Below, one piece after another: positions 52,706 through 64,000 of a stretch of DNA of 64,000 nt (positions within the stretch are counted from its first letter, which is position 1; each line of letters starts with the position of its first letter). The stretch is from the IMG/VR virus record IMGVR_UViG_3300035698_007508, positions 32,001 through 96,000 of that record. One strand, given 5' to 3'. Under the pieces are notes generated by a model. It did not search any database. It worked only from the letters and a program-made list of their open reading frames with translations, and had not been told where the DNA came from. Position numbers and translations under genes: made by a program. The stretch is from a virus.

Positions 52706-55051
52706 ATGAGTGACCGAATACAAATGATTCCGCCGCACACCGTCCGTTCACGGGTGCAAATTCTCGCCGAGAAGCAGGACTACAACCACAAGCTGATGAA
52801 CATTCCGGCGATGTGGGCGCGCACGCGGGGCAAAGGCATCAAAGTTGCGATCCTCGACACTGGCCGCCCGAACCATGTGGACCTCAACCCGTCCGGTAGT
52901 TGGACGGCGTACCCAGGTTACACCGAGGACGCCAATGGCCACTCCACCCATTGTGGTGGTATTGTCGCCGCTATCGCCAATAACAGTATGGGCGTGGCCG
53001 GTATCGCCCCGGAAGTCGAAGATTACTACGGTGCTGTGCTGGATAGTGACGGTGCCGGCGATATCCAAGCTATCGCAGACGGTATCCGATGGGCTGTGGA
53101 CGAGCTCGGCGCTGATGTGATCAGCATGAGTCTAGGTATCTCCGCCGGCGCCTCGGTGTTAAGCCAGTGGGAAGATGCTTGCGACTACGCCGTTCGCCAG
53201 GGTGTGGCAGTCTTCGCCGCGGCCGGTAATGAGTACGGCGACGTCGGGCAGCCGGCACAGTACGACTCGGTCATTGCGATCGCTGCAGTCAACAGCCGTA
53301 GGGATCACGCGAACTTCTCCAACACGGGCCCGGAAGTTGACTTCGCGACTGGCGGTGTGGACGTATATTCGACGTATTTGAACAACTCATACGCCAAACT
53401 GAGCGGTACGTGCCTTGCTGGCGGTACTAGGGTATGGACAAACGAGGGATTGAAGTGCATCAAAGATATGGAAGAAGGAGACTTCGTATGGTCTCTTGAT
53501 GAATCTATGAACCTTGTGCCTAGGCGGTGCGTGGCAAGGATTAGCAACGGAATTAGGGAGACACACACAGTAAAGACCGGTAACCAGACAATTGATGGAG
53601 TTACGGAAAATCATCCTTTTCTTGTTGTGCGGCGTACTCCGAAAAACGACAGGGATCTGGATGGCCACGTGTGGAAATTCAGCGGGAGACGCTATGATGT
53701 TGTGGCGCGCTGGATTCCCCTGTCTGACATGGTTGAGGGGGATATGGTTGTTGTGCCAAAGTCTCTTCCAGGTGGTAATGAATTGAATGTTGTTGGTCTA
53801 GCCAGAGAATGCGGAATTGACTGCGACAGTATAGACGGGGTGGCACTGTGCCAGGTTGTGGGTGCATTTATCGGCGATGGATCATATGTCCGTGACAACA
53901 GGAGAGCAAACACCCAAGGAATCACATTGGACATCGGACTCAATGATCCGGAGTTGGCTGACAGGTACAAGGCGCTTATTGATGACTTGTTCTGCGTCGA
54001 GTCTCACAATTACGATGGTGACGTAAGAGTTTATTGTGTGGCTGCAGCCCAATTCCTCGCAGGGTTAGGACTAACAGACGGAGCACACGGGAAAAGGTTA
54101 CCACAATGGATTTGGAGTCTGAAATCCAAGTACCGTAAGGCAATGCTTGCTGGAATAATCGATAGCGATGGAACTATAGGTAAAAACGGACGAGCAGTGA
54201 TTTCGATGTGTAATTTGGAACTAATCCACGACATCAAAGCGCTCGCCCAGGGTCTGGGATTCTTGGTATCTAATGTCTTATCCAGAGAGCGAAGGAACCC
54301 ATTCCTTGATGATGTTAGTCGAGCAGGGACGGAACAAGTTGAATGGGTAAATGAGCATACAATCAGTTTGTCGAATCCAGGACGGATAGCTGAATTGCCG
54401 ATGTTATCTTCTTCAAAGAAGCGGAGGGCAATGTCTGCTAGGCATATGGATTTCCGGTGTTTTTATCGTAATTTCCATTTTCATATGGATGATGTTTGTC
54501 TGAAAAGAGTGACTGAGATTTCCTCAAAAGGGGCGGAAGAAGTATTCGACATAACTGTGGAAGGTTCGCACAACTTTATTGCTGAGGGGATTTTAGTACA
54601 CAATAGTATGGCGTGCCCGGCCGCGGCCGCCGTGGGGGCCCTGATCCTGGCTGACGCGCTACAGGGCGGTAAGAAACTATCGCCGGCTGAATTGCGCGCT
54701 AAGCTGCGCAAAATCGCGTATGACGTAGGCGCAGACGGGTTTGATGAGGTATATGGCCACGGTATCCCGATTTTCGGGTCCGGCGGTGACCCATATGACT
54801 CTGACAATGTGCCAGAAGGGCCGGTAGAGGTTCCTGACGCACCCGACACAGGTAAGAAGTTCGGTATCAGGTCTGACTGTGCTACCTGGCGACTGGCGCA
54901 GACGCTGGTATTAGGTATGGCGTATGACCTGAACTGTGGAAAGCATATTGACCAGGCGTGGGCCCGTGCTATTAAGCAGTTGGCGGGCGATATGGCTGGC
55001 CTGGATAAGTTGATTCGCGCACGTGAAGCGGTACTCGACCGCAAAAAGTAA
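52706..55051 (+). CDS. Subtilisin-family (S8) serine protease, intein-containing, no signal peptide
   Basis: Asp in VAILDTG; His in NGHSTHCGG; oxyanion Asn in AAAGNE; Ser in LSGT|SMACP once the intein is removed. Confidence 0.92.
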   Translation: MSDRIQMIPPHTVRSRVQILAEKQDYNHKLMNIPAMWARTRGKGIKVAILDTGRPNHVDLNPSGSWTAYPGYTEDANGHSTHCGGIVAAIANNSMGVAGIAPEVEDYYGAVLDSDGAGDIQAIADGIRWAVDELGADVISMSLGISAGASVLSQWEDACDYAVRQGVAVFAAAGNEYGDVGQPAQYDSVIAIAAVNSRRDHANFSNTGPEVDFATGGVDVYSTYLNNSYAKLSGTCLAGGTRVWTNEGLKCIKDMEEGDFVWSLDESMNLVPRRCVARISNGIRETHTVKTGNQTIDGVTENHPFLVVRRTPKNDRDLDGHVWKFSGRRYDVVARWIPLSDMVEGDMVVVPKSLPGGNELNVVGLARECGIDCDSIDGVALCQVVGAFIGDGSYVRDNRRANTQGITLDIGLNDPELADRYKALIDDLFCVESHNYDGDVRVYCVAAAQFLAGLGLTDGAHGKRLPQWIWSLKSKYRKAMLAGIIDSDGTIGKNGRAVISMCNLELIHDIKALAQGLGFLVSNVLSRERRNPFLDDVSRAGTEQVEWVNEHTISLSNPGRIAELPMLSSSKKRRAMSARHMDFRCFYRNFHFHMDDVCLKRVTEISSKGAEEVFDITVEGSHNFIAEGILVHNSMACPAAAAVGALILADALQGGKKLSPAELRAKLRKIAYDVGADGFDEVYGHGIPIFGSGGDPYDSDNVPEGPVEVPDAPDTGKKFGIRSDCATWRLAQTLVLGMAYDLNCGKHIDQAWARAIKQLAGDMAGLDKLIRAREAVLDRKK
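53411..54604 (+). mobile_element. Intein (398 aa) with LAGLIDADG homing endonuclease at the subtilase catalytic Ser
   Basis: Starts CLAGGTRVWT; block B TENHPF; motifs VVGAFIGDG and MLAGIIDSDG; ends FDITVEGSHNFIAEGILVHN then +1 Ser; clearly lower GC than the flanks. Confidence 0.95.
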
Positions 55052-55059
55052 AAAAAGAC

Positions 55060-55088
55060 TTGACCTACAGATTCAAACACTGCAATTT
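55060..55088 (+). promoter_or_regulatory. Candidate promoter TTGACC-N17-CAATTT with A-tract upstream
   Basis: Preceded by AAAAAGTAAAAAAAG (UP-element-like); would start a ~115-nt transcript ending at the 55167 terminator. Confidence 0.35.
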
Positions 55089-55094
55089 GTACAG

Positions 55095-55208
55095 TGGTTG
55101 GAACGATCGGCCCTGATTTTCAGGTGTCGGAACGGCGTGCGCTCCTCTGCAAGGCCGTTTAGCTCTGTGACCCGCCTGCTTCCTCCGGCAGGCGGGTCGC
55201 TCCTTTTT
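55095..55208 (+). ncRNA. Candidate small RNA with three hairpins and anti-Shine-Dalgarno loops
   Basis: Hairpins at 55107-55130, 55131-55159 (loop GCTCCTCT) and 55167-55200 (loop TTCCTCCG), then a T-tract; no ORF with an RBS. Confidence 0.35.
55167..55208 (+). terminator. Intrinsic terminator
   Basis: GTGACCCGCCTGC-TTCCTCCG-GCAGGCGGGTCGC: 13-bp stem (11 perfect core pairs), then TCCTTTTT. Confidence 0.8.
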
Positions 55209-55315
55209 GTCCCCAAAAGTATCACTATTTCTGACTAAATCAGGCCACTAAATCGGTTATAACTAACTAATAGGGAAGGACTTCCATTGCGGCACCCCGA
55301 TTTTGGGGATCGTGA

Positions 55316-55346
55316 TTGAAATCTGACCCGATTACCTGTATATAGT
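55316..55346 (+). promoter_or_regulatory. Candidate promoter TTGAAA-N17-TATATA(GT)
   Basis: Followed by a small hairpin GTGAAA-CGAGT-TTTCAC (55352-55368), a GGAGGT SD and a 5-codon ORF. Confidence 0.4.
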
Positions 55347-55415
55347 ATGACGTGAAACGAGTTTTCACTCAAATGGAGGTACTATCATGCTACCGCAGGG
55401 CTAAAAACCCGCACA

Positions 55416-55484
55416 TTGACGCACCTCAGGCACTGATTTTGTGTGAAATCGGTGCCTGCGGCTCGTGTCAAGCCGCTCTCTTTT
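55416..55484 (+). promoter_or_regulatory. Candidate attenuator-like RNA switch with mutually exclusive hairpins
   Basis: 13-bp stem 55427-55439/55446-55458. Outer stem TTGACGC/GTGTCAA competes with hairpin GCGGCT/AGCCGC (55458-55476), which is followed by TCTCTTTT. Confidence 0.35.
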
Positions 55485-55490
55485 ACCTAT

Positions 55491-55519
55491 TGGACACCCG
55501 GATCAGATCCTGGTACTAT
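55491..55519 (+). promoter_or_regulatory. Candidate promoter TGGACA-N17-TACTAT with extended -10 (TGn)
   Basis: Lies directly before GGAGG and ATG 55530; the resulting leader would be very short. Confidence 0.35.
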
Positions 55520-55529
55520 TGGAGGCATC

Positions 55530-55955
55530 ATGAATTGTAGTTTCATCAACCCAGCACCGATCGGCGTCAATCCGCCGCTCGATTCCGCCCGCAGACCCAT
55601 CTATCGGGTCACCGCGGGTGACGAAATCAGGCTCGAAACCAAGGTCCAGCTGCACAACGGTGTGGATGCGACGCCTGAGAACTCGCTCGCCAACTTCGAA
55701 CTGCACGATCAGCGCTTCGAGACCGCCGTAACATGGACGGGACAGTGGCGTAACGGTATCGAACTGCGCGATGACGGTATCACAGAGATCCTGTTACCCC
55801 AGGCGGTTGCTGATATATTGCGGCGCGGGGCGTTCGTATTCAGTATGACCATCAGCGACGTGCATGGTAATCACCGACGCACGATCATGTCCGGCTCATT
55901 ACTGGTCGAGTACCAACCGACGTCACCGCATCACAGTATTCCGTACAAAGACTAG
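55530..55955 (+). CDS. Small beta-sandwich protein (BppU N-terminal-like, putative)
   Basis: GGAGG SD, ATG 55530; GDEIRLETKV...GITEILLPQAVADILRRGAFVFSMTISD...GSLLV pattern. Confidence 0.5.
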   Translation: MNCSFINPAPIGVNPPLDSARRPIYRVTAGDEIRLETKVQLHNGVDATPENSLANFELHDQRFETAVTWTGQWRNGIELRDDGITEILLPQAVADILRRGAFVFSMTISDVHGNHRRTIMSGSLLVEYQPTSPHHSIPYKD

Positions 55956-56686
55956 CGCCGGCGCGCTGACTTGATCTGCGGTATCGGCTTGCGCGTTATC
56001 CCATGCTTGCGTTCGGCCATACGCTGGAACGTCGCGGACCGGCCACGCAGGCGCTTATACGTATCCGAACAGGTGCCGCGGTCGTGTTTTATCGCCACGG
56101 TGTCACAGATGCCCACTTTGAGCACCCCACGCGCACGTATGAAGAAGTCCAGGTGCTCTGATAGCTTCAATTCCGGATCCCACGGTACCAGGCGCAGTCG
56201 TTCGGTTCGCGCCATGAAGAAATTGGGGATCACCTCCACCACATCCATACCACAGCGTTGCTCCAGTATGGCCTTACGTAGTAGCATGTGCCGGCCACGA
56301 CTCGGGTCTAACGTGCCGTGGAAACCAAACATCTGCCTCGGCACGTTCTCTACCTGCCCACCCACTATGTCGATGTCCGGATACGTGTCCAGCAGGCCGT
56401 GCAGCGTCTCCAGCTTGGTTTGGACCGTGAAAACAAAGTCGTCGTCGAGCATGACAAGCCTAGGCGTGGTAACGAGCCGCACCAGCTCGTTACGCCCAGC
56501 GGACAGCCCACTGTCATACGGCAATGTGACGGTACGGATGCCTGGCCCGGACACGCGTATAGGCGTATGACTGTCGTCGACGATCAGAATTGGTATATCC
56601 GGGTAGTAGTACCGGATACTCTGTACCAGTCTGTCCAGGTGGTGTGGGCGTTCGAAGGCTTTGATGCAGCATGTGACATCGCTCAT
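55952..56686 (-). CDS. GT-A glycosyltransferase resembling B4GALNT1/2 (beta-1,4-GalNAc transferase) catalytic domains
   Basis: VTCCIKAFER; IVDDS; AGRN..VTTP; LDDDF; PNFFMART; WDPELK..EHLDFF. Confidence 0.85.
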   Translation of the reverse strand: MSDVTCCIKAFERPHHLDRLVQSIRYYYPDIPILIVDDSHTPIRVSGPGIRTVTLPYDSGLSAGRNELVRLVTTPRLVMLDDDFVFTVQTKLETLHGLLDTYPDIDIVGGQVENVPRQMFGFHGTLDPSRGRHMLLRKAILEQRCGMDVVEVIPNFFMARTERLRLVPWDPELKLSEHLDFFIRARGVLKVGICDTVAIKHDRGTCSDTYKRLRGRSATFQRMAERKHGITRKPIPQIKSARRR

Positions 56687-58389
56687 TTACGATACCGCGT
56701 GTGTACTTGGGGTCCTCCGCCTGTCGTACGTCTTTGCTTGATCCTGGATTCGCGGGGCGGTATATGCACGTGATTCCGGCCGCTATGCGTTTGCGATGCA
56801 CTCACTACACGCCGTGCGCGTGTAGTGTCCACACCACTCTCCGGCACGGGCGGCATACCGCACTGAGCCCGGGCCTTGTTTGCACGTTGGCGTATGCACG
56901 CATATTGTGTAACGCCCGCCGGCTTCGTGATGGTTGTCAATCCATGCTTGCGCATCATCAGCTCGGTCCCGATCAGGCCTTTACCGCCACGCAGCTTGCG
57001 ATACGCCTGGTCGGCAGTCTTAATCGCTTTGTCGTGCCCGATCACACATTTGGCCGTGTATCCTACCCGCAGTTTACCGCGTGCGCGTAGGAAAAAGTCT
57101 AGGTGTTCGGCCATTTTGAGGTCCGCGTCCCAACGGTTACGCCGTACCGCATCCGTCTTGGCTATAAAGAAGTTGAGCACGAGATCATACACCTGATAGG
57201 TGCCGTGATCCTCCCGTGGATCTGGCGTGACAGTCAACTGCGACCCGGTGACGTCAATCAGCCCTTCATAGCTGCGCAGACGCCGCGTACCGGTCGTGTC
57301 CTGAACTGCGCCACCAAGTAAGTCCAGATCTGAACCCACCAATGTGTCGTACATGTGCTGTAGATTGGTATCGGGTGTGATGATGAAGTCGTCGTCGAGC
57401 AGTAGGAAGTACGGTGTGGTTACCTTGTCCAACATGAAGTTACGCCCGGCGGCCAGTCCCGTATCGTATGGCAATGCGTGCCAATCTACGTCCGGTTGCG
57501 GGCGGGGGTGCTGGCTGTCGTCGCTCACGATGATCGCCATATCTGGGTGCGCGGCTTTTAATGACTGAATCAACCGAGCGGCCACGTGCGGCGCTTCGAA
57601 CGTCTTAATAATAGCCGTGACATTCTTTTCCCAGTGGGTATCCATGCTGGATATGATCGCGGCCGGTGGCGCGCTGGTGACCGCTCCAGTATGCTCCTGC
57701 ACTGTGGCACGTTCGGCTTTGGTCAACACGCCGGGCGGCTTACGCTCGAATGCGCTGCCGGTCTTGAGTTTGAACGTCTGGCGATGCGCGTCCACGATGG
57801 GCAGGTCCAGCCAGCGTAGTAAGGCTTGCGCTGCATCCCAGTCGAATGTACCGTAGTCAACGCTATACGTGGTGTCCGGGTATTGACTGGCGTGCGCGGC
57901 GAATGCCGTGCGTGCCGCTACCCACTCATGGCACCATTGAGCAGTCACAGTAGGATCGAGTGTACCGCGGTAGAACTTGTATTTGACGCTGGTCAGTGTC
58001 TCGTACGGATCGCGCAGGATCGTGACGATGCGGCCTTCCGGGTACATGGTGTGCAGGTAGTCCAGCATTTCCGAAGAGTTGTAACGCACTTCCTTGCAAC
58101 CCCAGTTGGTGGCCTGCTTGAACATGCTGGTGAGGTAATCACGGTGCGTCTGGAGCAGGCTCTGCTTGGTCCAGCGGTTACACCACGGGTCCCACTTGGT
58201 CACATCACCCGGCTTGTCGATACGTCCGCCCATGGCGAGCAGGTCAGCATAGGCACGCCGTGTGTTGTGCATGAAGCCGTGATGTTCGCCCGTAAGATAT
58301 GTATCCGGGCAGGTATTGATCAGGCGCTGTACCAGTGTCGTACCGGAGCGCGCAGGGCCTAACACCCATATTGGTCGTTCTACTTGCAT
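56683..58389 (-). CDS. Sulfotransferase fused to a B4GALNT-like glycosyltransferase
   Basis: 5'-PSB loop GPARSGTT, WGCKE and 3'-PB ILRDPYETLTS; then VTAIIKTF, SDDS, AGRN, LDDDF, NFFIAKT, EHLDFF. Start at ATG 58389 after a GAGGA SD. Confidence 0.85.
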   Translation of the reverse strand: MQVERPIWVLGPARSGTTLVQRLINTCPDTYLTGEHHGFMHNTRRAYADLLAMGGRIDKPGDVTKWDPWCNRWTKQSLLQTHRDYLTSMFKQATNWGCKEVRYNSSEMLDYLHTMYPEGRIVTILRDPYETLTSVKYKFYRGTLDPTVTAQWCHEWVAARTAFAAHASQYPDTTYSVDYGTFDWDAAQALLRWLDLPIVDAHRQTFKLKTGSAFERKPPGVLTKAERATVQEHTGAVTSAPPAAIISSMDTHWEKNVTAIIKTFEAPHVAARLIQSLKAAHPDMAIIVSDDSQHPRPQPDVDWHALPYDTGLAAGRNFMLDKVTTPYFLLLDDDFIITPDTNLQHMYDTLVGSDLDLLGGAVQDTTGTRRLRSYEGLIDVTGSQLTVTPDPREDHGTYQVYDLVLNFFIAKTDAVRRNRWDADLKMAEHLDFFLRARGKLRVGYTAKCVIGHDKAIKTADQAYRKLRGGKGLIGTELMMRKHGLTTITKPAGVTQYACIRQRANKARAQCGMPPVPESGVDTTRARRVVSASQTHSGRNHVHIPPRESRIKQRRTTGGGPQVHTRYRK

Positions 58390-59483
58390 GCTATCATCCT
58401 CACTACTTGCGGATTTTCGGTCGCGGTACACGCCCAATCAGCGCTTACCTGATTTGAGAGTACCGTGAACCCAGCTGCCTGTACGCGCTTGGCGAACTGC
58501 GGGGTGCGCAGGAACCGGCGATAGTGATCTGTGTGACGCGCATCATCCGGCAATTTAAGTCCATGCGCGTACAGCGGGTCCCGCACCGTACGCGCCTCGA
58601 CCAGCAGTTTTCCGCCGGGCTTGAGCAGCTTGTGGAAGCATGCCAATGCGCGGACCTCGTTACCGAGCGTCACGCTGTGAAGCGTGAATCTGGCATAGAC
58701 GGTGTCGTACGTGCCGTGCTCTTCGGGATAGTGCAGGTGCGTGAAATCATCCCAGCGCCAGATACCATCGGGCAGGTGCTCGCACAGTTTTTGAACGCCT
58801 TGCCTGGACTGCTCGATACCAACCACAGTCATACCCTTGGCCAGGAAGTAGCGAGCGTCACGTCCGTTACCCGGGCCGCACTCCAGCAACTTACCTGTAG
58901 CGTGACCAGCCTCGTAGCACCACTGCGCGAACGCCGATGGCTGCATCGGGGCAGTGTCGGTACCGTAATACGTATCCCAATAGTCGGGTGCGGGTGCCTG
59001 GTCGATACACTTAGGGCTGCTACTGTAGTTCCACTCCCGTACTGGTATGTACCATTTACTGCCGTACTGCGTTTGCAGCATGTGCAGCGGGTTACGTGGG
59101 ATCAGGAACTCACGCCCCAAGAACGTAGTTGGTATCAGATCGAACGTGTCCCACACGTACTGTAATTTCCGGCCCCTGCGGTACAATGGGAGCGTTACGT
59201 GGCCACCCGCCCGCTGGTGGAAGAACAGGTCCAGCTTTACACCAGCCATACGCATGGCCAGTACAGCTGGATTGGTATGCACGTGCTTCGTGTCTTGGTA
59301 AAAGCCGTGCGCGGTCAGGATGTCGACGAACGGGCGCTGTGCATCGCGGCGCCATAGCCCGATGTCCAGGTCGAGGTCATGGTACAACAAGTCGTTGTTA
59401 CGGTAGTAACCGAGTAGTACGCCGCACGACAACCAGAACGGGATAGCAGCCGCTGTCAGAGCGTCGTGCGCACGCAGCAACAT
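58380..59483 (-). CDS. LicD/fukutin-like nucleotidyltransferase fused to a class I SAM methyltransferase
   Basis: FWLSCGVLLGYYR..HDLDLDIG, KLDLFF, QYG..W; then LLECGPGNGRDA, YARFTLH, LKPGGKL. Start codon uncertain (ORF open to 59768). Confidence 0.8.
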   Translation of the reverse strand: MLLRAHDALTAAAIPFWLSCGVLLGYYRNNDLLYHDLDLDIGLWRRDAQRPFVDILTAHGFYQDTKHVHTNPAVLAMRMAGVKLDLFFHQRAGGHVTLPLYRRGRKLQYVWDTFDLIPTTFLGREFLIPRNPLHMLQTQYGSKWYIPVREWNYSSSPKCIDQAPAPDYWDTYYGTDTAPMQPSAFAQWCYEAGHATGKLLECGPGNGRDARYFLAKGMTVVGIEQSRQGVQKLCEHLPDGIWRWDDFTHLHYPEEHGTYDTVYARFTLHSVTLGNEVRALACFHKLLKPGGKLLVEARTVRDPLYAHGLKLPDDARHTDHYRRFLRTPQFAKRVQAAGFTVLSNQVSADWACTATENPQVVRMIACK

Positions 59484-59505
59484 GGTGTGCTTAACGTTAT
59501 ACCGG

Positions 59506-60093
59506 CTAAGTTCCTTGTGCGTTGGTCGGTCGGTGCCATTGGTGGAAGAGTCCCCTGACCCGGTCGCGATGTATCGTGGTGTGTGTGGATGCTCGTGCGT
59601 AGAAGTTGGCATCTTCAGACCCCCATTGTTGGTATTCGTCCCATGTGTTCGCTTGTTCGTACACCCGGCGTGTAACCGCCGCGATGCCTTTTCCATTATC
59701 TCGCCACCTACCAGCTGAGTGGTCAGGTTTCGTGTAAGACCAGCAGATCGGGAAGTATGCGGCGCCATTGCGCGTTGTATCCACGGCCTGCGTGATCACA
59801 TCAGAACAAAATAGCATATCAGTGTCAATGAAGAAGAGGCACGGGTAGCGCGCCAGGCACGCCGCACTGTTCAGCCCTCGCCCGCGGGAGAAGGGCTCGT
59901 TGCTCGGTAACTGCAACAGTGTGTAGTCAATGCGGGATCCGTGCAACAAACCAGGTAGCCAGCCAAGCCGATCGTCCGTACCCCAGTCGGCTACGATCAG
60001 TTCTGCCGGTACGTACGTGCTGGCCGCAAGCGACCGTACGCAGTTCGCGAATAGCGAAGACCGGTTCTTCGATGTTACGCAGAATGAAATCAC
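59506..60093 (-). CDS. Glycosyltransferase (GT2/GT7-C-like)
   Basis: ISFCVTSKNR; VADWG; SRGRGLN; FIDTD; WGSED; FHQWH. GTGA-coupled to the upstream gene. Confidence 0.85.
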   Translation of the reverse strand: MISFCVTSKNRSSLFANCVRSLAASTYVPAELIVADWGTDDRLGWLPGLLHGSRIDYTLLQLPSNEPFSRGRGLNSAACLARYPCLFFIDTDMLFCSDVITQAVDTTRNGAAYFPICWSYTKPDHSAGRWRDNGKGIAAVTRRVYEQANTWDEYQQWGSEDANFYARASTHTTIHRDRVRGLFHQWHRPTNAQGT

Positions 60094-62843
60094 GAGATCA
60101 ACCTCAGACGTTTCTCAGGCTCGTCGCGCTCTGTTCTGAGCACGCGTAACTGGCCCAAGCCTAGTACCCGAGATTCCCAGATGTCCGGACGCAGGCACCA
60201 CATATGCGGTTGTCCTTCCGCGGTGGTGAGTCGGTTGTACTGGTCTACGGTGAAGCCCCGCTCACGTAGTTCGGTAACCACCGCGTTGCGTGTGATAGTG
60301 ATTCCGTGTCTGGCCTTGAGGTACGTGTTGATCGTCGGTAACAGCCGCGTTTCAACCAGGACGACGTGCTCTGTGACGTACACTGCCGCGGTACGATCCG
60401 CGACGCGGTCAGGCAGCCCGTCTATGATCGTGTATTGCTTCTTGGTCCTGAGCACGTGTTGTAACCCCATGAAGAAGTAGTCAATGATGTTGGCGTTGTA
60501 CTCCAGGTAGTGCGGTAGTACCAACTTGTCAACGGCGTCCGTGACATCCGCTCCCATCAGGTCCGCCACGTAATGGTAGGCGGTGACGGCGGGTACCGGT
60601 GCGTCCATCAACAGATCGTAAGGGATGTCCCAACCGCGCATCAGTACGAAGCGTAGGAAGTCCGACATGGTACGTCGCATTGCTGCAATACTGGCGTGGC
60701 TGACCGCCGACAATCTTAACTCAGGTGTGTTCGTGAGCGCGATGAACGCTGTACGCGGCATGTCGCTGATGGGTGCGGCCTGTAGATTGGTGCATGTACC
60801 GATCAATGAAGTGCGAGCACCGCGTATCATTTGCTGCATGGAGCGAGGCGAGGCTGAGCAGATGTTGATAGGCAGTGGGAGTGCACCCAATCCCGAGTAG
60901 TTCCGTAAGGTATTCTGATCTACGAACGCAAACGCGTCAGGCGATCCTGATATCAACTCCGTGAACTGACTGTGGACCGGCTCCCAGATGTACTCCGCGG
61001 GGTCGGCCAGGAACAGGTGTCGCACGGGAGGTACCTGGTCGCGGCGCCTGCAACTCAGGTCCTGTAGTATACACGCCAGCATGTGCGAGATACAGGCGCT
61101 AAGCGCATTGGCGTGTACCGTTTTGGCCTGCCAGAGATTCTTGAACGTCACGATAGCATCCGACCGCTGCTGATACGCGTGAATGCCGGCGTATACCGGT
61201 GTGCACGTAGGCGGTACCAAGATCTTGGTTTGCTGCAGAATCTGTGTACCCTGGCGGGTAATCACCAGATTCGGGAGTTCCAGCTCCAGATCTGGGGATA
61301 TGCCGAACTGGCGCAGCTCGTCATTGACCGCCGGGCGGTCGTTGAATGCAGCACGGATCTCACGCCACTTGAAACCGGCTGTCTCGTAGATGCCGACGTG
61401 TGCATCGACACCTTCCGCGGCATACGCGCTGGCTACGGCCCGTTCGAGTGTTTTGGCGCTGGCGAAGTCACGGTCGATCATGGTAGCACGTACCGGATCG
61501 CAACCCTTGGCGCGCACAGCCATGCGGTAGTGCAGGACCCCGCGCCGGTTACGGACAATCTCTAACGTATCGAATCTGACGTTGCCTAGTCTGATATTCG
61601 CGTCGCAACCCCGTGTTTTGGCACCTTTGAACCCTGTATCCGTACGGTAGACTATGTACCCGTTGGCCAACGTCGCGCAGTCACCGCGGTAGGCGCGGGG
61701 TGTTACCACCAGATCCACCAGTTCGTCCGGGACGTGTCTACGGCGCAGGGCACTGGCTAGTGACGCATTACAGTGCGTCAACGGCGGAACCGTACTCAGC
61801 AGTCGTATGACACTGGTCAGCCCGTCGTGTGCGTACAGGTCATGTAATTCACGTGCTACCCAGGATTCGAGCGTCAGGGCCGCCTCACACAACCGGCGTA
61901 GCCCGGGTACGGTCGGTACCTCGCCTTGCGTGTCGATGACCCGGATCTCCGGACGGTACGCGGTACCGGTCACGACCTGGTCAGCTGTGAGGTACATGAA
62001 CGCCTTGGCGAGGGTTAGCGGTCCCCGTGGGTGCGTGATCAGGTACAGTTTTCGGAGCCCGCGGTATTCGAAGGGTAGTGGCAGATCGTCGACGGACGTG
62101 ACGGGTACGGGCGCCCCAGTGTAGTGGCGGTGGAGTGAGAATACGCCTGTCGCAAGTCGTTCGGACTGTGTGACATACAGTACAGGCTCCTCGCAGCTAC
62201 GCCGATCGACCATGTACATACCGCCTGGCGCCAGCCGGATGTATTCACGGCGCTCAGGATGCAGTAGTGGCTCGACGGCCACTCCCGTCACCTCACCCGC
62301 GTATGTATAGGCATAGAGAAGGTGCGGTTCGTGCCGGTACGCGGCGCGCTCCAGGCTACGTAGTTCCTGCGGTAGCCCATCCTGCAATAGGACGCCCAGA
62401 TCGGACGGTACGGCGCTTTGCAGTAATTTGTCCGTGTGCTGTAGGTGCGTTCGGCACATATAGCCGTCAGTCGAGGTGCCTTGCAGCGCCTGATGCGCAC
62501 GCAGAATGTAGGCCTTGATAAGCGCTTGACTCTGGCGGCGGGTAATGTATTCTTGCTGGTGACACTCGGGACAGTCGTCTGCGAAGGTCGTGCTGAATTC
62601 ACGTCCGGGGCTGAAGAGCTCTAGCGCCTGACTGAATTCCAGTTGACGGACTTGTGCCACCAACTGAACGGCATCGCCTTCGAACGCACAAACTGTACAG
62701 TAGAAGCGGTGAACGCCGGCAGGGTCAAGGACGTGAAGTGATGGTGAGACATTATGGCATAACGGGCACGGCTGGGGGTCGTCAACGCCTCCAGTTATAT
62801 CACAACCCAGTGCCTCCAAGAATGTGTCAAAACATACTCGCAT
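60090..62843 (-). CDS. Primase-like protein: N-terminal DnaG-type Zn-binding domain, remainder divergent
   Basis: CPLCH..SPSL....FYCTVCAFEGDAVQLV...FSQAL. No intact TOPRIM acidic motifs or Walker A motif were recognised downstream. Confidence 0.5.
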   Translation of the reverse strand: MRVCFDTFLEALGCDITGGVDDPQPCPLCHNVSPSLHVLDPAGVHRFYCTVCAFEGDAVQLVAQVRQLEFSQALELFSPGREFSTTFADDCPECHQQEYITRRQSQALIKAYILRAHQALQGTSTDGYMCRTHLQHTDKLLQSAVPSDLGVLLQDGLPQELRSLERAAYRHEPHLLYAYTYAGEVTGVAVEPLLHPERREYIRLAPGGMYMVDRRSCEEPVLYVTQSERLATGVFSLHRHYTGAPVPVTSVDDLPLPFEYRGLRKLYLITHPRGPLTLAKAFMYLTADQVVTGTAYRPEIRVIDTQGEVPTVPGLRRLCEAALTLESWVARELHDLYAHDGLTSVIRLLSTVPPLTHCNASLASALRRRHVPDELVDLVVTPRAYRGDCATLANGYIVYRTDTGFKGAKTRGCDANIRLGNVRFDTLEIVRNRRGVLHYRMAVRAKGCDPVRATMIDRDFASAKTLERAVASAYAAEGVDAHVGIYETAGFKWREIRAAFNDRPAVNDELRQFGISPDLELELPNLVITRQGTQILQQTKILVPPTCTPVYAGIHAYQQRSDAIVTFKNLWQAKTVHANALSACISHMLACILQDLSCRRRDQVPPVRHLFLADPAEYIWEPVHSQFTELISGSPDAFAFVDQNTLRNYSGLGALPLPINICSASPRSMQQMIRGARTSLIGTCTNLQAAPISDMPRTAFIALTNTPELRLSAVSHASIAAMRRTMSDFLRFVLMRGWDIPYDLLMDAPVPAVTAYHYVADLMGADVTDAVDKLVLPHYLEYNANIIDYFFMGLQHVLRTKKQYTIIDGLPDRVADRTAAVYVTEHVVLVETRLLPTINTYLKARHGITITRNAVVTELRERGFTVDQYNRLTTAEGQPHMWCLRPDIWESRVLGLGQLRVLRTERDEPEKRLRLIS

Positions 62844-62893
62844 TTGCGCCTCTTTCGTCGTATGCTGTTAAATATCAATAAGGAGAACATGTA

Positions 62894-64000
62894 ATGGACG
62901 TCCTTCACGACAACAGCTTTCGTACTTGGACCAAAATCGCGTCCGTAGTCGGGGAAGCCAATATCCCGGATTACGTACGACAATATACACCGCCAGATGA
63001 GCAGACTGCAAGCGCTATGTCGGACTCCGACTTTGCTGACCCGGGCAAGCGGGCCTGGCCGATCGACAGTCAGGCTGCTACGTGGCTATCTGCGGCGTAC
63101 ATGTTAGAGAAGGAAGCAGGACCTCTTGCTGCACTCATTGCACGCAGCTTTAATAGGCGAATCGTCAAACCAGTTGGGGCCAAGTTGAAGCAAACAATAC
63201 GTGACTGGCTCGCTACGCCCGCAGTTGAGCCGCCATCTGATGTACCCGTGCCTGGTACGGCGTCTGCGAAGATTGCAGAAGCCGTGCTAGCGTGGGATAT
63301 CAAAGATGACGTGCTCAAATTGGCCGAGGCGTTCGTGGCGCGTACAGGGCAGACCAAGCAGGCAAGCGCTGTTGAAGCCAACTACGGCTGGATCCTCAAG
63401 GACGCATCCGGAGCTGTCACAGCCCGTCGTTACGGCGTGTTTGATGTACTGGGCCTGGGTAAGGCTGCGACCTATTTTGACGCCAACCGCCGGCATTATC
63501 CGCTCGCTATCAGGACCGGTATCGCCCGATTCCTCATGCAGAAGGCTGCGGAGTACGCGGTCGAGTACGAACAGTTGCCGACCAGCGTGTTGCGCGAAGC
63601 CGGGTACGGTGTGCCCCGTAAGTCCGTGATCATGCGCGAACTTAACGAGCGGGCACAACTTGCCAAAGATGCCGAATGCGGGATCCTACTAGCCAACGTA
63701 AACCGATTGATCGGTACCGGCACGGATGCGGAAGTCGCTGAGAACCTGGACAAGATTGCCGAAACAATTGACGCGTTTGATCAGGCAGAAGACCTTACAC
63801 GTTACTACGGTAAGCGCATCACGCACCCGTCTGACTTCCTATGCAGCGTGACCTTCAAAGAGGCTGAGGCCTTCGTCGAGAACACGGTGACATTGCGGAA
63901 ACTATCGTTCGACGTGCGCAAGCTACATACGACACCTGCGTTCCATAAGGCGGCTCAAACCGCCATGGGCGACGACTTCGATAACGCGTTGCGGGGACTC
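62894..64000 (+). CDS. K-x-A-rich protein with two DUF6582-like motifs (3'-truncated; absent from the ORF track)
   Basis: AAGGAG SD 8 nt before ATG 62894; 369 open codons to the window end. Motifs FADPGKRAWPIDSQAATWLSAAY and RRYGVFD..GKAATYFDAN..YP...IARFLMQKAAEY. Confidence 0.8.
   Translation, partial: MDVLHDNSFRTWTKIASVVGEANIPDYVRQYTPPDEQTASAMSDSDFADPGKRAWPIDSQAATWLSAAYMLEKEAGPLAALIARSFNRRIVKPVGAKLKQTIRDWLATPAVEPPSDVPVPGTASAKIAEAVLAWDIKDDVLKLAEAFVARTGQTKQASAVEANYGWILKDASGAVTARRYGVFDVLGLGKAATYFDANRRHYPLAIRTGIARFLMQKAAEYAVEYEQLPTSVLREAGYGVPRKSVIMRELNERAQLAKDAECGILLANVNRLIGTGTDAEVAENLDKIAETIDAFDQAEDLTRYYGKRITHPSDFLCSVTFKEAEAFVENTVTLRKLSFDVRKLHTTPAFHKAAQTAMGDDFDNALRGL

What the first reader, a model, noticed from the sequence alone, without database searches (positions are those of the whole stretch)
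55952..60093. Coupled operon for building and decorating a glycan: three GT domains plus sulfo-, phospho- and methyl-transferases
Four - strand genes are packed by overlaps or near-contact: GT2/GT7-like, LicD+methyltransferase, sulfotransferase+GT, and GT. Established: LicD/fukutin enzymes transfer phospho-alcohols from CDP donors, RSGT-type enzymes use PAPS, and virion glycosylation by phage GTs has been shown in mycobacteriophages. Inference: the phage makes a sulfated, phosphodiester-bearing glycan. The target could be the virion (huge Ser/Thr-rich sheath), the host surface (superinfection exclusion) or DNA, since the operon is coupled to a primase-like gene and both terminal GTs have basic tails. 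A phage pathway combining all four chemistries would be notable.
Basis: partly seen in the sequence, partly recalled or inferred. Interest (0 to 1): 0.75.

Follow-up and report, generated by a model that had tools for sequence, protein, structure and literature searches.

The report
Phage glycan-building cassette with sulfotransferase
An uncultured large phage from salt lakes carries four tightly coupled genes with six enzyme domains that should build a sugar chain and add phosphate-linked, methyl and sulfate groups; most of this gene set recurs in many other uncultured phages, but what it decorates is still unknown.

Summary
Four minus-strand genes follow a zinc-ribbon "primase-like" gene with 4-10 nt overlaps or a 22-nt gap. 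They encode:
- a chondroitin-synthase-like GT-A (D)
- LicD fused to a SAM methyltransferase (C)
- a sulfotransferase fused to a GT (B)
- a GT (A)

New here: the GT domains of A and B are paralogs and clear homologs of human B4GALNT1 (family GT12; E 1e-34). They keep its DxD motif and most of its UDP-GalNAc-binding residues.

The LicD-(cytidylyltransferase or MT)-GT12-GT12 arrangement recurs in IMG/VR phage contigs. LicD lies beside GT12 in 17 of 46 viral loci but in only 2 of 80 bacterial loci. It also occurs as fused polypeptides. D-like GTs are common neighbours of GT12. The sulfotransferase is this phage's own addition.

These modules sit among replication genes. In 15 loci they lie between the two halves of a split DnaE gene.

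No donor-synthesis genes and no 5hmC/5hmU genes were found. All the enzymes are soluble. The sheath is not notably Ser/Thr-rich, and B's "basic tail" looks non-coding in composition.

The target is unresolved: virion about 0.4, host envelope about 0.3, DNA about 0.1.

Earlier scan notes describe comparable phage glycan islands, some with sulfotransferases, on other DNA. I rate this a new variant of a known kind.

The parts
60090..62843 (-). Gene E, 917 aa. Upstream, translationally coupled gene with an N-terminal CHC2 zinc ribbon. 'Primase-like' applies to residues 26-76 only.
   Evidence: Pfam Zn_ribbon_DnaG 23.8 bits (cut-off 24.9) and phrog_510 over residues 14-75. No PDB relative by sequence. 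Its stop overlaps D's GTG start in GTGA.
59506..60093 (-). Gene D, 195 aa. Small GT-A glycosyltransferase like the GalNAc-transferase domain of chondroitin synthase (GT7-like). Carries DTD and WGSED motifs.
   Evidence: Pfam GT2 28.8 and CHGN 27.0 bits, both above cut-off; GT7C 16.9 bits, below. PDB: CHSY3 residues 539-685, E 3.7e-7. Motifs. GT7C-type GTs are the commonest neighbours of GT12 genes in other viral loci: 12 of 149 ORFs. phmmer hits lie directly upstream of GT12 in L018, L019 and L026.
59019..59483 (-). Gene C, N-terminal LicD-type phospho-alcohol transferase domain (aa 1-155 from the ATG at 59483).
   Evidence: Pfam LicD 26.4 bits (cut-off 22.6). FKRP 6kaj E 0.013. NCBIfam Mf1 cholinephosphotransferase 2.7e-6. 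DLDLD motif. Model pLDDT mostly 85-92. tblastn finds LicD genes beside GT12 in 17 viral loci.
58383..58991 (-). Gene C, C-terminal class I SAM-dependent methyltransferase domain (aa 165-367).
   Evidence: Pfam Methyltransf_23 5e-15. ECGPGNG motif. Model pLDDT >90. VIA Z 23.9, rmsd 2.2 over 187 residues to 7bgg; Foldseek 1e-12. Homologues are often fused to an APS-kinase-like domain or to LicD.
57655..58389 (-). Gene B, N-terminal PAPS-type sulfotransferase domain (aa 1-245 from the ATG at 58389).
   Evidence: Pfam Sulfotransfer_3 1.5e-15 over model positions 1-213 of 216. 5'-PSB GPARSGTT and 3'-PB RDPYETLTS motifs. A profile of B+P0286+P0004 hits TPST (8e-16), the OLS/CurM sulfotransferase domains and Stf-like chains. 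The model is poor here, pLDDT about 40.
56905..57636 (-). Gene B, GT12-like glycosyltransferase domain (aa 252-495).
   Evidence: Human B4GALNT1 9h6j E 5.7e-29. 38% identical to A. Model pLDDT >90.
56686..56913 (-). Last 76 codons of gene B. An Arg-rich open stretch with non-coding-like composition that runs into the ATGA junction with A and holds a perfect 10-bp hairpin at 56803-56827.
   Evidence: GC1/2/3 .65/.60/.53. Codon score -0.21, lower than all 325 windows of long ORFs. pLDDT <45. RNA fold z 0.05. Hairpin coordinates.
55952..56686 (-). Gene A, 244 aa. Stand-alone GT12-like glycosyltransferase, paralog of B's GT domain.
   Evidence: B4GALNT1 9h6j E 1.7e-34 over residues 4-202. K9, R13, D81/D83, N155, H201, Y210 and R214 match B4GALNT1 K284, R288, D356/D358, N437, H483, Y501 and R505 (PMC12217166). 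Its stop overlaps by 4 nt the stop of the convergent + strand ORF 55443..55955.

Best explanation
The four genes form one co-translated cassette of soluble cytoplasmic enzymes that builds and decorates a short anionic glycan or teichoic-acid-like chain.

Proposed steps:
1. D (chondroitin-synthase/GT7-like) and the two GT12 domains (B C-terminus, and A) add beta-linked hexosamine-type sugars from UDP-sugars. UDP-GalNAc or UDP-GlcNAc are the likeliest donors.
2. The LicD domain adds a phospho-alcohol from a CDP-donor. By analogy with relatives that carry a TagD-like cytidylyltransferase between LicD and GT12, this is probably glycerol-phosphate or a similar head group.
3. The methyltransferase fused to LicD methylates that group or a sugar.
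4. The sulfotransferase fused to a GT12 domain sulfates the sugar that its partner adds, using PAPS.

All donors come from the host.

What is shown: domain identities, intact motifs, coupling, and recurrence of the module in other phages.

What is inferred: donors, order of steps and product.

The acceptor is not shown. My best guess is the phage's own virion proteins, giving a highly acidic coat that would suit a salt-lake phage. I hold the enzymology at about 0.8 and the virion target at about 0.4.
For: Domain identity:
-.
- Intact catalytic motifs.
- Confident models of C and of B's GT12 domain.

Coupling and residence in the genome:
- Junctions.
- Codon usage is like the rest of the genome (0.30-0.43 for A, B and C; 0.05 for D), so the cassette is resident and not freshly acquired.

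Functional linkage by fusion and neighbourhood:
- Among 162 GT12 homologues: 32 are GT12+GT12, 14 are GT12 with LicD, 2 LicD+MT+GT12, 2 LicD+GT12+GT12, 1 LicD+GT12+MT and 1 GT12+sulfotransferase in the opposite order.
- Pfam finds sulfotransferase families in up to 9 of 72 multidomain homologues.
- In 46 IMG/VR loci, LicD lies next to GT12 in 17 and tandem GT12 occurs in at least 14. L014 and L038 have LicD-MT-GT12-GT12 in the window's order.
- The commonest neighbours are GT7C-type GTs (12), TagD-like cytidylyltransferases (9) and NDP-sugar epimerases (6).
- In tandem viral pairs the first and second GT12 domains fall in separate well-supported clades (100 and 97 SH-aLRT), so they are two specialised enzymes.

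Soluble enzymes acting on a non-lipid or pre-made acceptor:
- No transmembrane segment (maximum KD19 1.59).
- No priming transferase and no other GT2 in the 126 kb held.

Habitat:
- Exact-match contigs in four runs labelled salt lake metagenome.

Precedent:
- Virion glycosylation in mycobacteriophages (Freeman 2023, cited in PMC12619734).
Against: - No chemistry has been measured.
- The cassette is co-oriented and coupled with a replication-type gene, not with capsid or tail genes.
- In other phages the module sits among DNA polymerase, ParB-like, DNA methylase and HNH genes. No structural family appears among the top 25 neighbour families. That placement fits early or middle expression better than virion decoration.
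- No Ser/Thr-rich acceptor tail was identified.
- No CDP-donor or PAPS synthesis gene lies in the 126 kb held, about 60% of the genome.
- The window's two GT12 domains group with mostly bacterial sequences, not with the main viral tandem clades. The cassette may therefore be an independent assembly and not a descendant of the common viral module.
- The sulfotransferase's nearest solved relatives are protein-tyrosine and polyketide sulfotransferases, so sugar sulfation is inferred only from the fusion.
Confidence: 0.4

Rival explanations
1. The cassette remodels the host cell envelope during infection. The soluble enzymes work at the cytoplasmic face on the host's lipid-linked O-antigen, capsule or teichoic-acid precursors. 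Host machinery exports the products, which changes the receptor surface. This would exclude superinfecting phages or stop progeny from sticking to debris.
For: - LicD and TagD-type enzymes and GT-A transferases are the standard tools of teichoic-acid, capsule and LPS decoration.
- Benler et al. read a licD+ispD insertion in Flandersviridae phages this way (PMC8008677).
- The prophage enzyme TarP glycosylates wall teichoic acid (described in Pyle et al.).
- In Salinibacter ruber, a salt-pond host, the variable O-antigen islands are enriched in sulfotransferases and glycosyltransferases tied to virus recognition (PMC6060240).
- The placement suggests early or middle expression.
- Closest GT12 homologues, like A, end in a basic ...RR tail that could bind membranes.
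Against: - No membrane anchor, priming enzyme, flippase or ligase.
- The LicD-GT12 arrangement is rare in bacterial genomes (2 of 80 loci) and common in viral ones (17 of 46; Fisher p 4e-7). That is odd for a module borrowed from envelope pathways.
- The host is unknown.
Confidence: 0.3
2. The cassette hypermodifies the phage's DNA with a sugar-phosphate adduct. This would be a new branch of phage DNA glycan modification that protects the genome from host nucleases.
For: - Coupling to a zinc-ribbon primase-like gene.
- In other phages the GT12 module lies among DNA polymerase, ParB-like, DNA methylase and nuclease genes. In 15 loci it lies between the halves of a split DnaE gene.
- Pyle et al. 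found DNA-glycosylating GT-A enzymes in just such neighbourhoods.
- 2 of 72 multidomain GT12 homologues carry a TET-associated glycosyltransferase domain.
- All four proteins are basic, pI 8.2-9.5.
Against: - No hydroxymethylase of the thymidylate-synthase family, no TET/JBP and no C5-methylase in the 126 kb held.
- None in 46 (ThyS) or 40 (TET) other records with the module, including 8 that are at least 90% complete. The TET search had no positive control.
- GT12, GT7-like, LicD and sulfotransferase families have no known DNA substrate.
- Frequent HNH genes nearby suggest the replication-gene location may reflect homing-endonuclease mobility, not function.
Confidence: 0.12
3. The sulfotransferase domain sulfates tyrosines of a protein, not a sugar, so the cassette couples protein glycosylation with tyrosine sulfation.
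For: The best solved relatives of the domain profile are protein-tyrosine sulfotransferases, E 8e-16 to 1e-9.
Against: - The same profile also hits polyketide (OLS/CurM) and mycobacterial Stf-like sulfotransferases, so this is family-level similarity only.
- The domain is fused to a GT12 domain in both orders in separate lineages (B, and P0004), which points to a shared sugar substrate.
- The model of this domain is too poor to inspect the acceptor site.
Confidence: 0.08

Closest known systems
Human B4GALNT1 (GM2/GD2 synthase), CAZy family GT12, PDB 9H6J (PMC12217166)
   Same: - Clear sequence homology of A (E 1.7e-34, residues 4-202) and of B's C-terminal domain (E 5.7e-29).
- GT-A fold with DDD/DxD.
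- Equivalents of K284, R288, N437, H483, Y501 and R505, which bind UDP-GalNAc.
   Different: - The phage proteins are soluble single domains.
- They lack the N-terminal anchor, the non-catalytic 'lower' domain and the disulfides.
- R457 is replaced, with an invariant Lys one position earlier.
- The acceptor cannot be a ganglioside.
[quoted passage not shown]
LicD-(cytidylyltransferase or MT)-GT12-GT12 module of uncultured phages (IMG/VR loci L005-L008, L014, L017, L033, L035, L038, L040 and others; fused forms P0135, P0190, P0157)
   Same: - Same domain set and order.
- L014 and L038 have LicD-MT-GT12-GT12.
- P0135 is 48% identical to C and carries a GT12 domain on the same chain.
- D-like GT7C genes lie directly upstream of GT12 in L018, L019 and L026.
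   Different: - None of the 46 loci has a sulfotransferase detectable with B.
- Many encode their own TagD-like cytidylyltransferase and an epimerase, which the 126 kb held here lacks.
- The window's GT12 domains fall outside the main viral tandem clades.
- As far as I could find, this module has not been described or tested.
Virion glycosylation of mycobacteriophages (Freeman et al. 2023, PMC10527164, cited)
   Same: Phage-encoded soluble glycosyltransferases (some phages also carry methyltransferases; from my own knowledge) that act in the cytoplasm on phage proteins with host sugar donors.
   Different: - There the genes lie in the structural operon next to the capsid gene, and glycans sit on C-terminal tails of capsid and tail-tube proteins.
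- Here the genes follow a replication-type gene.
- No acceptor tail was found.
- LicD and sulfotransferase chemistry is added.
licD + ispD insertion in the replication module of 'Flandersviridae' gut phages (Benler et al. 2021, PMC8008677)
   Same: A LicD-family enzyme carried by a phage, inserted among replication genes, of unknown target.
   Different: - There it is paired with a CDP-alcohol synthase and no glycosyltransferases.
- Here it is fused to a methyltransferase and embedded among three GTs and a sulfotransferase, with no donor synthase.
Phage DNA glycan hypermodification clusters (Pyle et al., bioRxiv 10.1101/2023.12.21.572611)
   Same: GT-A enzymes in phage neighbourhoods with DNA polymerase, ParB-like and methylase genes, and sequential GTs that build di- and trisaccharides.
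   Different: Those clusters depend on a 5hmC/5hmU-producing enzyme (ThyS-like, or TET plus C5-methylase). None was found here or in 8 complete relatives carrying the module.
Mammalian alpha-dystroglycan matriglycan pathway (ISPD, fukutin/FKRP, B3GALNT2, LARGE, HNK-1 sulfotransferase). An analogy from my own knowledge, apart from the FKRP match.
   Same: The same logic of HexNAc transfer, then LicD-family phospho-alditol transfer from a CDP-donor, then a two-domain GT pair, with sulfation as a modifier. C's LicD motif aligns with FKRP (6kaj, E 0.013).
   Different: Only LicD/FKRP is homologous. The other steps use other families. The order of steps and the product in the phage are unknown.

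Membership tests
CAZy GT12 (B4GALNT1-like beta-1,4-GalNAc transferases): genes A and B (C-terminal domain) | Significant sequence similarity to the B4GALNT1 catalytic domain over most of its length | tested here: met
   phmmer against the PDB: A E 1.7e-34 (residues 4-202 to chain 245-450); B E 5.7e-29.
CAZy GT12 (B4GALNT1-like beta-1,4-GalNAc transferases): genes A and B (C-terminal domain) | DxD metal/UDP motif (D356, D358) | tested here: met
   A D81-D82-D83 and B D332-D334 align with the motif. They are invariant in 50 homologues.
CAZy GT12 (B4GALNT1-like beta-1,4-GalNAc transferases): genes A and B (C-terminal domain) | GT12-specific UDP-GalNAc-binding residues K284, N437, R457, Y501 and R505 (PMC12217166) | tested here: inconclusive
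   K284 and N437 align with K9 and N155. Y210-x3-R214 is conserved at 90% or more in the family and lies where Y501/R505 should, but beyond the HMMER alignment. R457 aligns with Leu or Met, with an invariant Lys one position earlier.
CAZy GT12 (B4GALNT1-like beta-1,4-GalNAc transferases): genes A and B (C-terminal domain) | Inverting transfer of GalNAc from UDP-GalNAc | not testable with these tools
   Needs an enzyme assay.
LicD family (CDP-alcohol phosphotransferases: LicD, fukutin, FKRP): gene C N-terminal domain | Pfam LicD match above the gathering score | tested here: met
   26.4 bits against 22.6, but over only 38 residues (108-145 of the long ORF).
LicD family (CDP-alcohol phosphotransferases: LicD, fukutin, FKRP): gene C N-terminal domain | Nucleotidyltransferase-fold G-x-LLG ... 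DxDxD metal motif | tested here: met
   CGVLLGYYRNNDLLYHDLDLD read from the sequence. It aligns with FKRP 292-332.
LicD family (CDP-alcohol phosphotransferases: LicD, fukutin, FKRP): gene C N-terminal domain | Fold like solved LicD-family structures (FKRP) | tested here: inconclusive
   The model is confident for residues 1-150, but both fold searches were filled by the methyltransferase domain.
PAPS-dependent sulfotransferases (Sulfotransfer_3 / TPST-CurM-Stf clade): gene B N-terminal domain | 5'-phosphosulfate-binding loop and 3'-phosphate-binding R-x7-S motif | tested here: met
   GPARSGTT at residues 11-18 and RDPYETLTS at 126-134. R14, S15, G16, T18, R126, D127 and S134 are invariant with P0286 and P0004.
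PAPS-dependent sulfotransferases (Sulfotransfer_3 / TPST-CurM-Stf clade): gene B N-terminal domain | Profile similarity over the whole domain | tested here: met
   Pfam PF13469 1.5e-15, model positions 1-213 of 216. Profile against the PDB: TPST 8e-16, OLS sulfotransferase 1e-13, CurM sulfotransferase 2e-7.
PAPS-dependent sulfotransferases (Sulfotransfer_3 / TPST-CurM-Stf clade): gene B N-terminal domain | Sulfotransferase fold | tested here: inconclusive
   The AlphaFold2 model has pLDDT about 40 here because only two homologues were available.
GT7 / chondroitin-synthase GalNAc-transferase-like GT-A: gene D | Family profile match, a DxD motif and the WGxED motif (the motif is known to me from GT7 enzymes) | tested here: met
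   CHGN 27.0 bits (cut-off 23). CHSY3 C-terminal domain E 3.7e-7. DTD at residue 90 and WGSED at 157. Glyco_transf_7C itself is below cut-off (16.9 against 23).
Class I SAM-dependent methyltransferase: gene C C-terminal domain | Rossmann-type fold with a GxGxG SAM loop | tested here: met
   Methyltransf_23 5e-15. ECGPGNG motif. VIA Z 23.9 with rmsd 2.2 over 187 residues. The substrate class cannot be read from these matches.
Mycobacteriophage-type virion glycosylation system | GT genes inside the structural (capsid/tail) operon | tested here: not met
   The cassette lies on the opposite strand from the structural genes and is coupled to gene E. In other phages its neighbours are replication genes.
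Mycobacteriophage-type virion glycosylation system | Glycans on virion proteins | not testable with these tools
   Needs particles or co-expression plus mass spectrometry.
Phage DNA sugar hypermodification cluster (5hmC/5hmU-dependent) | A hydroxymethyl-pyrimidine-forming enzyme (ThyS-like, or TET/JBP with C5-methylase) in the genome | tested here: not met
   None in the 126 kb held, about 60% of the genome. None in 46/40 other records with the GT12 module, 8 of them at least 90% complete. The TET model had no positive control.

The most novel reading that the evidence does not exclude
The LicD-(cytidylyltransferase or MT)-GT12-GT12 set is a virus-specific, horizontally mobile module that travels inside replication genes. 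In one lineage of ~120-166 kb phages it lies between the halves of a split DnaE. It would build a teichoic-acid-like anionic polymer on a non-canonical acceptor such as phage DNA or a replication or packaging-stage component. In this salt-lake phage a sulfotransferase was recruited to raise the negative charge as an adaptation to high salt.
Probability: 0.12. Interest if true: 0.85.

Novelty: new variant of a known kind. Interest (0 to 1): 0.55.

Why it matters
Phage-made glycans are known experimentally from very few systems: T-even DNA glucosylation, mycobacteriophage virions and seroconverting prophages.

What this cassette adds:
- GT12, a family with only four characterised enzymes, all mammalian, has a large prokaryotic and viral branch. 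There were 2,920 representative clusters at E <= 1e-3.
- In viruses GT12 is wired to LicD, cytidylyltransferase, methyltransferase and, here, sulfotransferase domains as a recurrent module.

If the product coats the virion, it would be the first sulfated, phosphodiester-bearing phage glycan, and a plausible salt adaptation. If it acts on the host surface or on DNA, it would be a new exclusion or anti-restriction chemistry.

The fused enzymes (LicD-MT, sulfotransferase-GT12) are compact, soluble candidates for glyco-engineering. They also offer bacterial-expressible models of B4GALNT1-type catalysis.

Tried and rejected
- Single-protein scans of viral contigs with B, E, C, P0135 and the downstream + strand gene found no close relative of this phage. 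blastn against GenBank phages found nothing.
- I could not test whether relatives keep the cassette at this site.
- The one metagenome scan, with P0135, returned only a 2-kb fragment.
- The 50-sequence GT12 alignment was too diverse for pattern search. A 10-sequence one worked.
- The word-indexed search for sulfotransferase-domain homologues gave one hit, so that domain folded poorly.
- The fold searches of C reported only the methyltransferase half.
- The protein atlas was unavailable.
- Rfam found nothing in 55000-63200.
- Promoter- and terminator-like sites are at chance level, so transcript boundaries are unknown.
- The spacer-like tail of B has no unusual overall RNA stability, z 0.05.
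- No RNA holder was listed among public runs, so expression is untested.
- Considered and rejected: that the long ORFs of C (462 aa) and B (584 aa) are the real products.
- Considered and rejected: that the sheath is a Ser/Thr-rich acceptor.
- Considered and rejected: that the cassette is a recent bacterial import, because its GC and codon use match the genome.
- Considered and rejected: that Salinibacter phages share the cassette. They carry only a lone, divergent GT12-like domain.

Full report
**Setting.** The window is bases 32001-96000 of a 126,754-bp IMG/VR virus record that CheckV rates about 60% complete. It is a large tailed phage. It has split multisubunit RNA polymerase beta-type genes, a 1,537-aa sheath, a baseplate wedge protein and a prohead protease. 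GC is even at 55-60% across the window. Short contigs with no mismatch to the 8 kb around the finding occur in four public runs labelled salt lake metagenome. The phage therefore lives in hypersaline water. The host is unknown.

**Observation.** Five minus-strand genes run from 62843 to 55952 between two plus-strand blocks.
- E (917 aa) has only a CHC2 zinc ribbon at its N-terminus, just under Pfam's cut-off, and no solved relative.
- D (195 aa) starts at a GTG that overlaps E's stop (GTGA), with a GAGG upstream.
- C's longest ORF (462 aa) overlaps D by 263 nt. Its first 95 codons have no coding signature, and the LicD fold begins at the ATG at 59483, 22 nt after D's stop.
- B most likely starts at the ATG at 58389 (GAGG 9-12 nt upstream), overlapping C's end by 10 nt.
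- A starts in an ATGA overlap with B's stop.
- A's stop overlaps the stop of the convergent plus-strand ORF by 4 nt.

**Domains.**
- D: Pfam GT2 and CHGN, with DTD and WGSED motifs.
- C: LicD (DLDLD) plus a class I methyltransferase (ECGPGNG).
- B: Sulfotransfer_3 over the full model, with both PAPS-binding motifs (GPARSGTT, RDPYETLTS), plus GT2.
- A: GT2.

**The GT domains of A and B.** They are 38% identical paralogs. By sequence search against solved structures both are clear homologs of human B4GALNT1, the only validated human member of CAZy family GT12 (E 1.7e-34 and 5.7e-29). Using the residues named in the structure paper (PMC12217166):
- K284, R288, D356/D358, N437 and H483 align with identical residues.
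- A conserved Y-x3-R lies where Y501/R505 should be.
- R457 is not conserved, and an invariant Lys sits one position earlier.

**The other domains.**
- D is closest to the GalNAc-transferase domain of chondroitin sulfate synthase 3 (E 3.7e-7).
- A three-sequence profile of the sulfotransferase domain hits protein-tyrosine sulfotransferases, the OLS and CurM polyketide sulfotransferase domains and Stf-like proteins. This places the domain in that clade but does not give its substrate.
- The AlphaFold2 model of C is confident (pLDDT 87). Its C-terminal half is a textbook methyltransferase (Z 23.9).
- In the model of B the GT12 domain is confident, while the sulfotransferase half and the tail are not.

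**B's 76-residue 'basic tail'.** It has GC1/2/3 of .65/.60/.53 and a codon score below every one of 325 equal-length windows from long genes of this genome. It is best seen as a spacer that happens to stay open up to the ATGA junction. It should not be read as a DNA- or membrane-binding device. The short basic ends of A and D are real. The closest GT12 homologues also end in ...RR.

**How common the family is.** An exhaustive phmmer search of B against 1.84 billion representative proteins gave 2,920 hits at E <= 1e-3 and 197 at <= 1e-30, all through the GT12 domain.

| Architecture | Count |
|---|---|
| Single GT12 domain | 107 |
| GT12+GT12 tandem | 32 |
| GT12 fused to LicD, either order | 14 |
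| LicD+MT+GT12 | 2 |
| LicD+GT12+GT12 | 2 |
| LicD+GT12+MT | 1 |
| GT12+sulfotransferase, opposite order to B (P0004) | 1 |

Pfam on 72 multidomain hits adds sulfotransferase families in up to nine, plus GT25, cytidylyltransferase and TET-associated GT domains. C's best relative is P0135. It is 48% identical and carries a GT12 domain on the same chain. The window's genes are therefore pieces of a combination that evolution has fused repeatedly. That is good evidence that they act on one product.

**Where the combination lives.**
- A pattern scan of IMG/VR found 46 loci with GT12-like genes, GC 27-66%. They share nothing else with this phage.
- LicD lies next to GT12 in 17 loci, tandem GT12 occurs in at least 14 and the methyltransferase in 5. 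L014 and L038 have LicD-MT-GT12-GT12 in exactly the window's order.
- L014 is a true tailed phage with RtcB, Erf and an exonuclease upstream, and an epimerase, terminase and portal downstream.
- Among 149 immediate neighbours the commonest Pfam families are Glyco_transf_7C (12; D's type), TagD-like cytidylyltransferase (9), epimerase (6), more GT2 enzymes and methyltransferases.
- The cytidylyltransferase lies close to the GT12 gene — between LicD and GT12 in, for example, L005-L008, L030 and L040 — and 9 of the 12 loci that have it also have LicD.
- D-like genes lie directly upstream of GT12 in L018, L019 and L026.
- None of the 46 loci has a sulfotransferase detectable with B.
- In 80 bacterial loci from the genome collection (Chloroflexia, Bacillus/Paenibacillus, Sulfurovum, sponge symbionts and others), only 2 have LicD nearby and 2 have tandem GT12. 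Fisher tests give p = 4e-7 and 1e-5.

The module is therefore virus-enriched.

**Tree of 132 GT12 domains.**
- Viral and bacterial sequences are strongly clustered: 12 changes against about 41 for shuffled labels.
- The first and second domains of viral tandems form separate supported clades.
- The window's A and B sit with mostly bacterial sequences and with L018/L019/L026. They are not in the main viral tandem clades and are not resolved as sisters.

The window's cassette may be an independent assembly of the same parts.

**Target.**
- All four proteins lack transmembrane segments. The 126 kb held has no other GT2, no priming enzyme and no APS kinase, IspD, NTP-transferase, TagD-like enzyme or epimerase. 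Donors must come from the host or from the missing 40% of the genome.
- The sheath is not notably Ser/Thr-rich.
- By PHROG, the neighbours of the module in other phages are DNA polymerase, DNA methylase, ParB-like proteins, nucleases and many HNH endonucleases, not structural proteins.
- In 15 loci the glycan genes lie between the N- and C-halves of a split DnaE gene.
- This placement, and the coupling to gene E here, would fit DNA modification (compare Pyle et al.). Against that, no thymidylate-synthase-type hydroxymethylase, TET/JBP or C5-methylase is present here or in the other records, 8 of them complete. The TET search lacked a positive control.
- The HNH genes offer a non-functional reason for the location.
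- Host-envelope remodelling is supported by the usual roles of LicD and TagD chemistry, by Benler et al.'s reading of phage licD+ispD and by the sulfotransferase-rich O-antigen islands of Salinibacter. It is weakened by the rarity of the arrangement in bacteria.
- Virion decoration is supported by the all-soluble, self-contained design, by the mycobacteriophage precedent and by the appeal of an acidic coat in brine. It is weakened by the gene position.

I put the virion at about 0.4, the host envelope at about 0.3 and DNA at about 0.12, with the rest open.

**Novelty.** Earlier notes of this scan (unchecked by me) describe glycan islands in at least 11 other uncultured phage genomes, some with LicD, methyl- and sulfotransferases. 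The general kind is therefore known, and the 'four chemistries' are not unique.

What is new here:
- the GT12 identity;
- the recurrent virus-enriched LicD-GT12 module and its fusions;
- its seat among replication genes;
- the sulfotransferase-GT12 fusion in a salt-lake phage.

I rate it a new variant of a known kind, of moderate interest.

Noticed in passing
L005-L008, L013, L015, L016, L018-L020, L026, L029, L030, L042 (e.g. L015 7629-9989 and 20089-20544; L018 3326-5584 and 13255-15645): In 15 IMG/VR loci a variable 7-12 kb glycan gene island sits between the N-half (PHP + NTPase) and the C-half (finger, HHH, intein, OB) of a split DNA polymerase III alpha gene. The records are 35-166 kb, and two are complete at about 165 kb. 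The GT12 gene starts right after the N-half.
   Followed up: partly
L002 8046-8615 (NC_031927.1 166726-167295, Synechococcus phage S-CAM7 gp227): The gene annotated 'adenylylsulfate kinase' matches the methyltransferase domain of gene C, not a kinase. The label probably comes from relatives that fuse an APS-kinase-like P-loop domain to this methyltransferase (P0018 and others: 379 aa, 107 member sequences, contigs up to 210 kb). It lies in a sugar-gene cluster next to a tail-fibre gene.
   Followed up: no
window 56803-56827, minus strand: A perfect 10-bp hairpin (CACTACACGC / GCGTGTAGTG, 5-nt loop) lies inside the non-coding-like last 76 codons of gene B, about 120 nt before gene A's start. 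No T-run follows it, and the region as a whole is not unusually stable.
   Followed up: partly
window 55000-63000: Short contigs (151-447 bp, depth 2-4) with zero mismatches occur in four public runs, from four coded studies, all labelled salt lake metagenome. The phage is a low-abundance member of hypersaline communities.
   Followed up: partly
window 59506-60093 (gene D): D has a much weaker codon-usage score (0.05) than its neighbours (0.30-0.43), although its frame is still the best of the three. It may be a later addition to the cassette.
   Followed up: no
L003 5992-7110 (Salinibacter phage 10_1, gene 10_1_40) and 183 further Salinibacter ruber M8 phage records: These cultured-host phages carry a lone, divergent GT12-like domain (31-36% identity) at the N-terminus of a 372-aa hypothetical protein, with no LicD or sulfotransferase nearby.
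   Followed up: partly
window 60090-62843 (gene E): The 'primase-like' label rests on a CHC2 zinc ribbon in residues 26-76 only. The other roughly 840 residues match no Pfam, PHROG, NCBIfam or PDB entry.
   Followed up: partly
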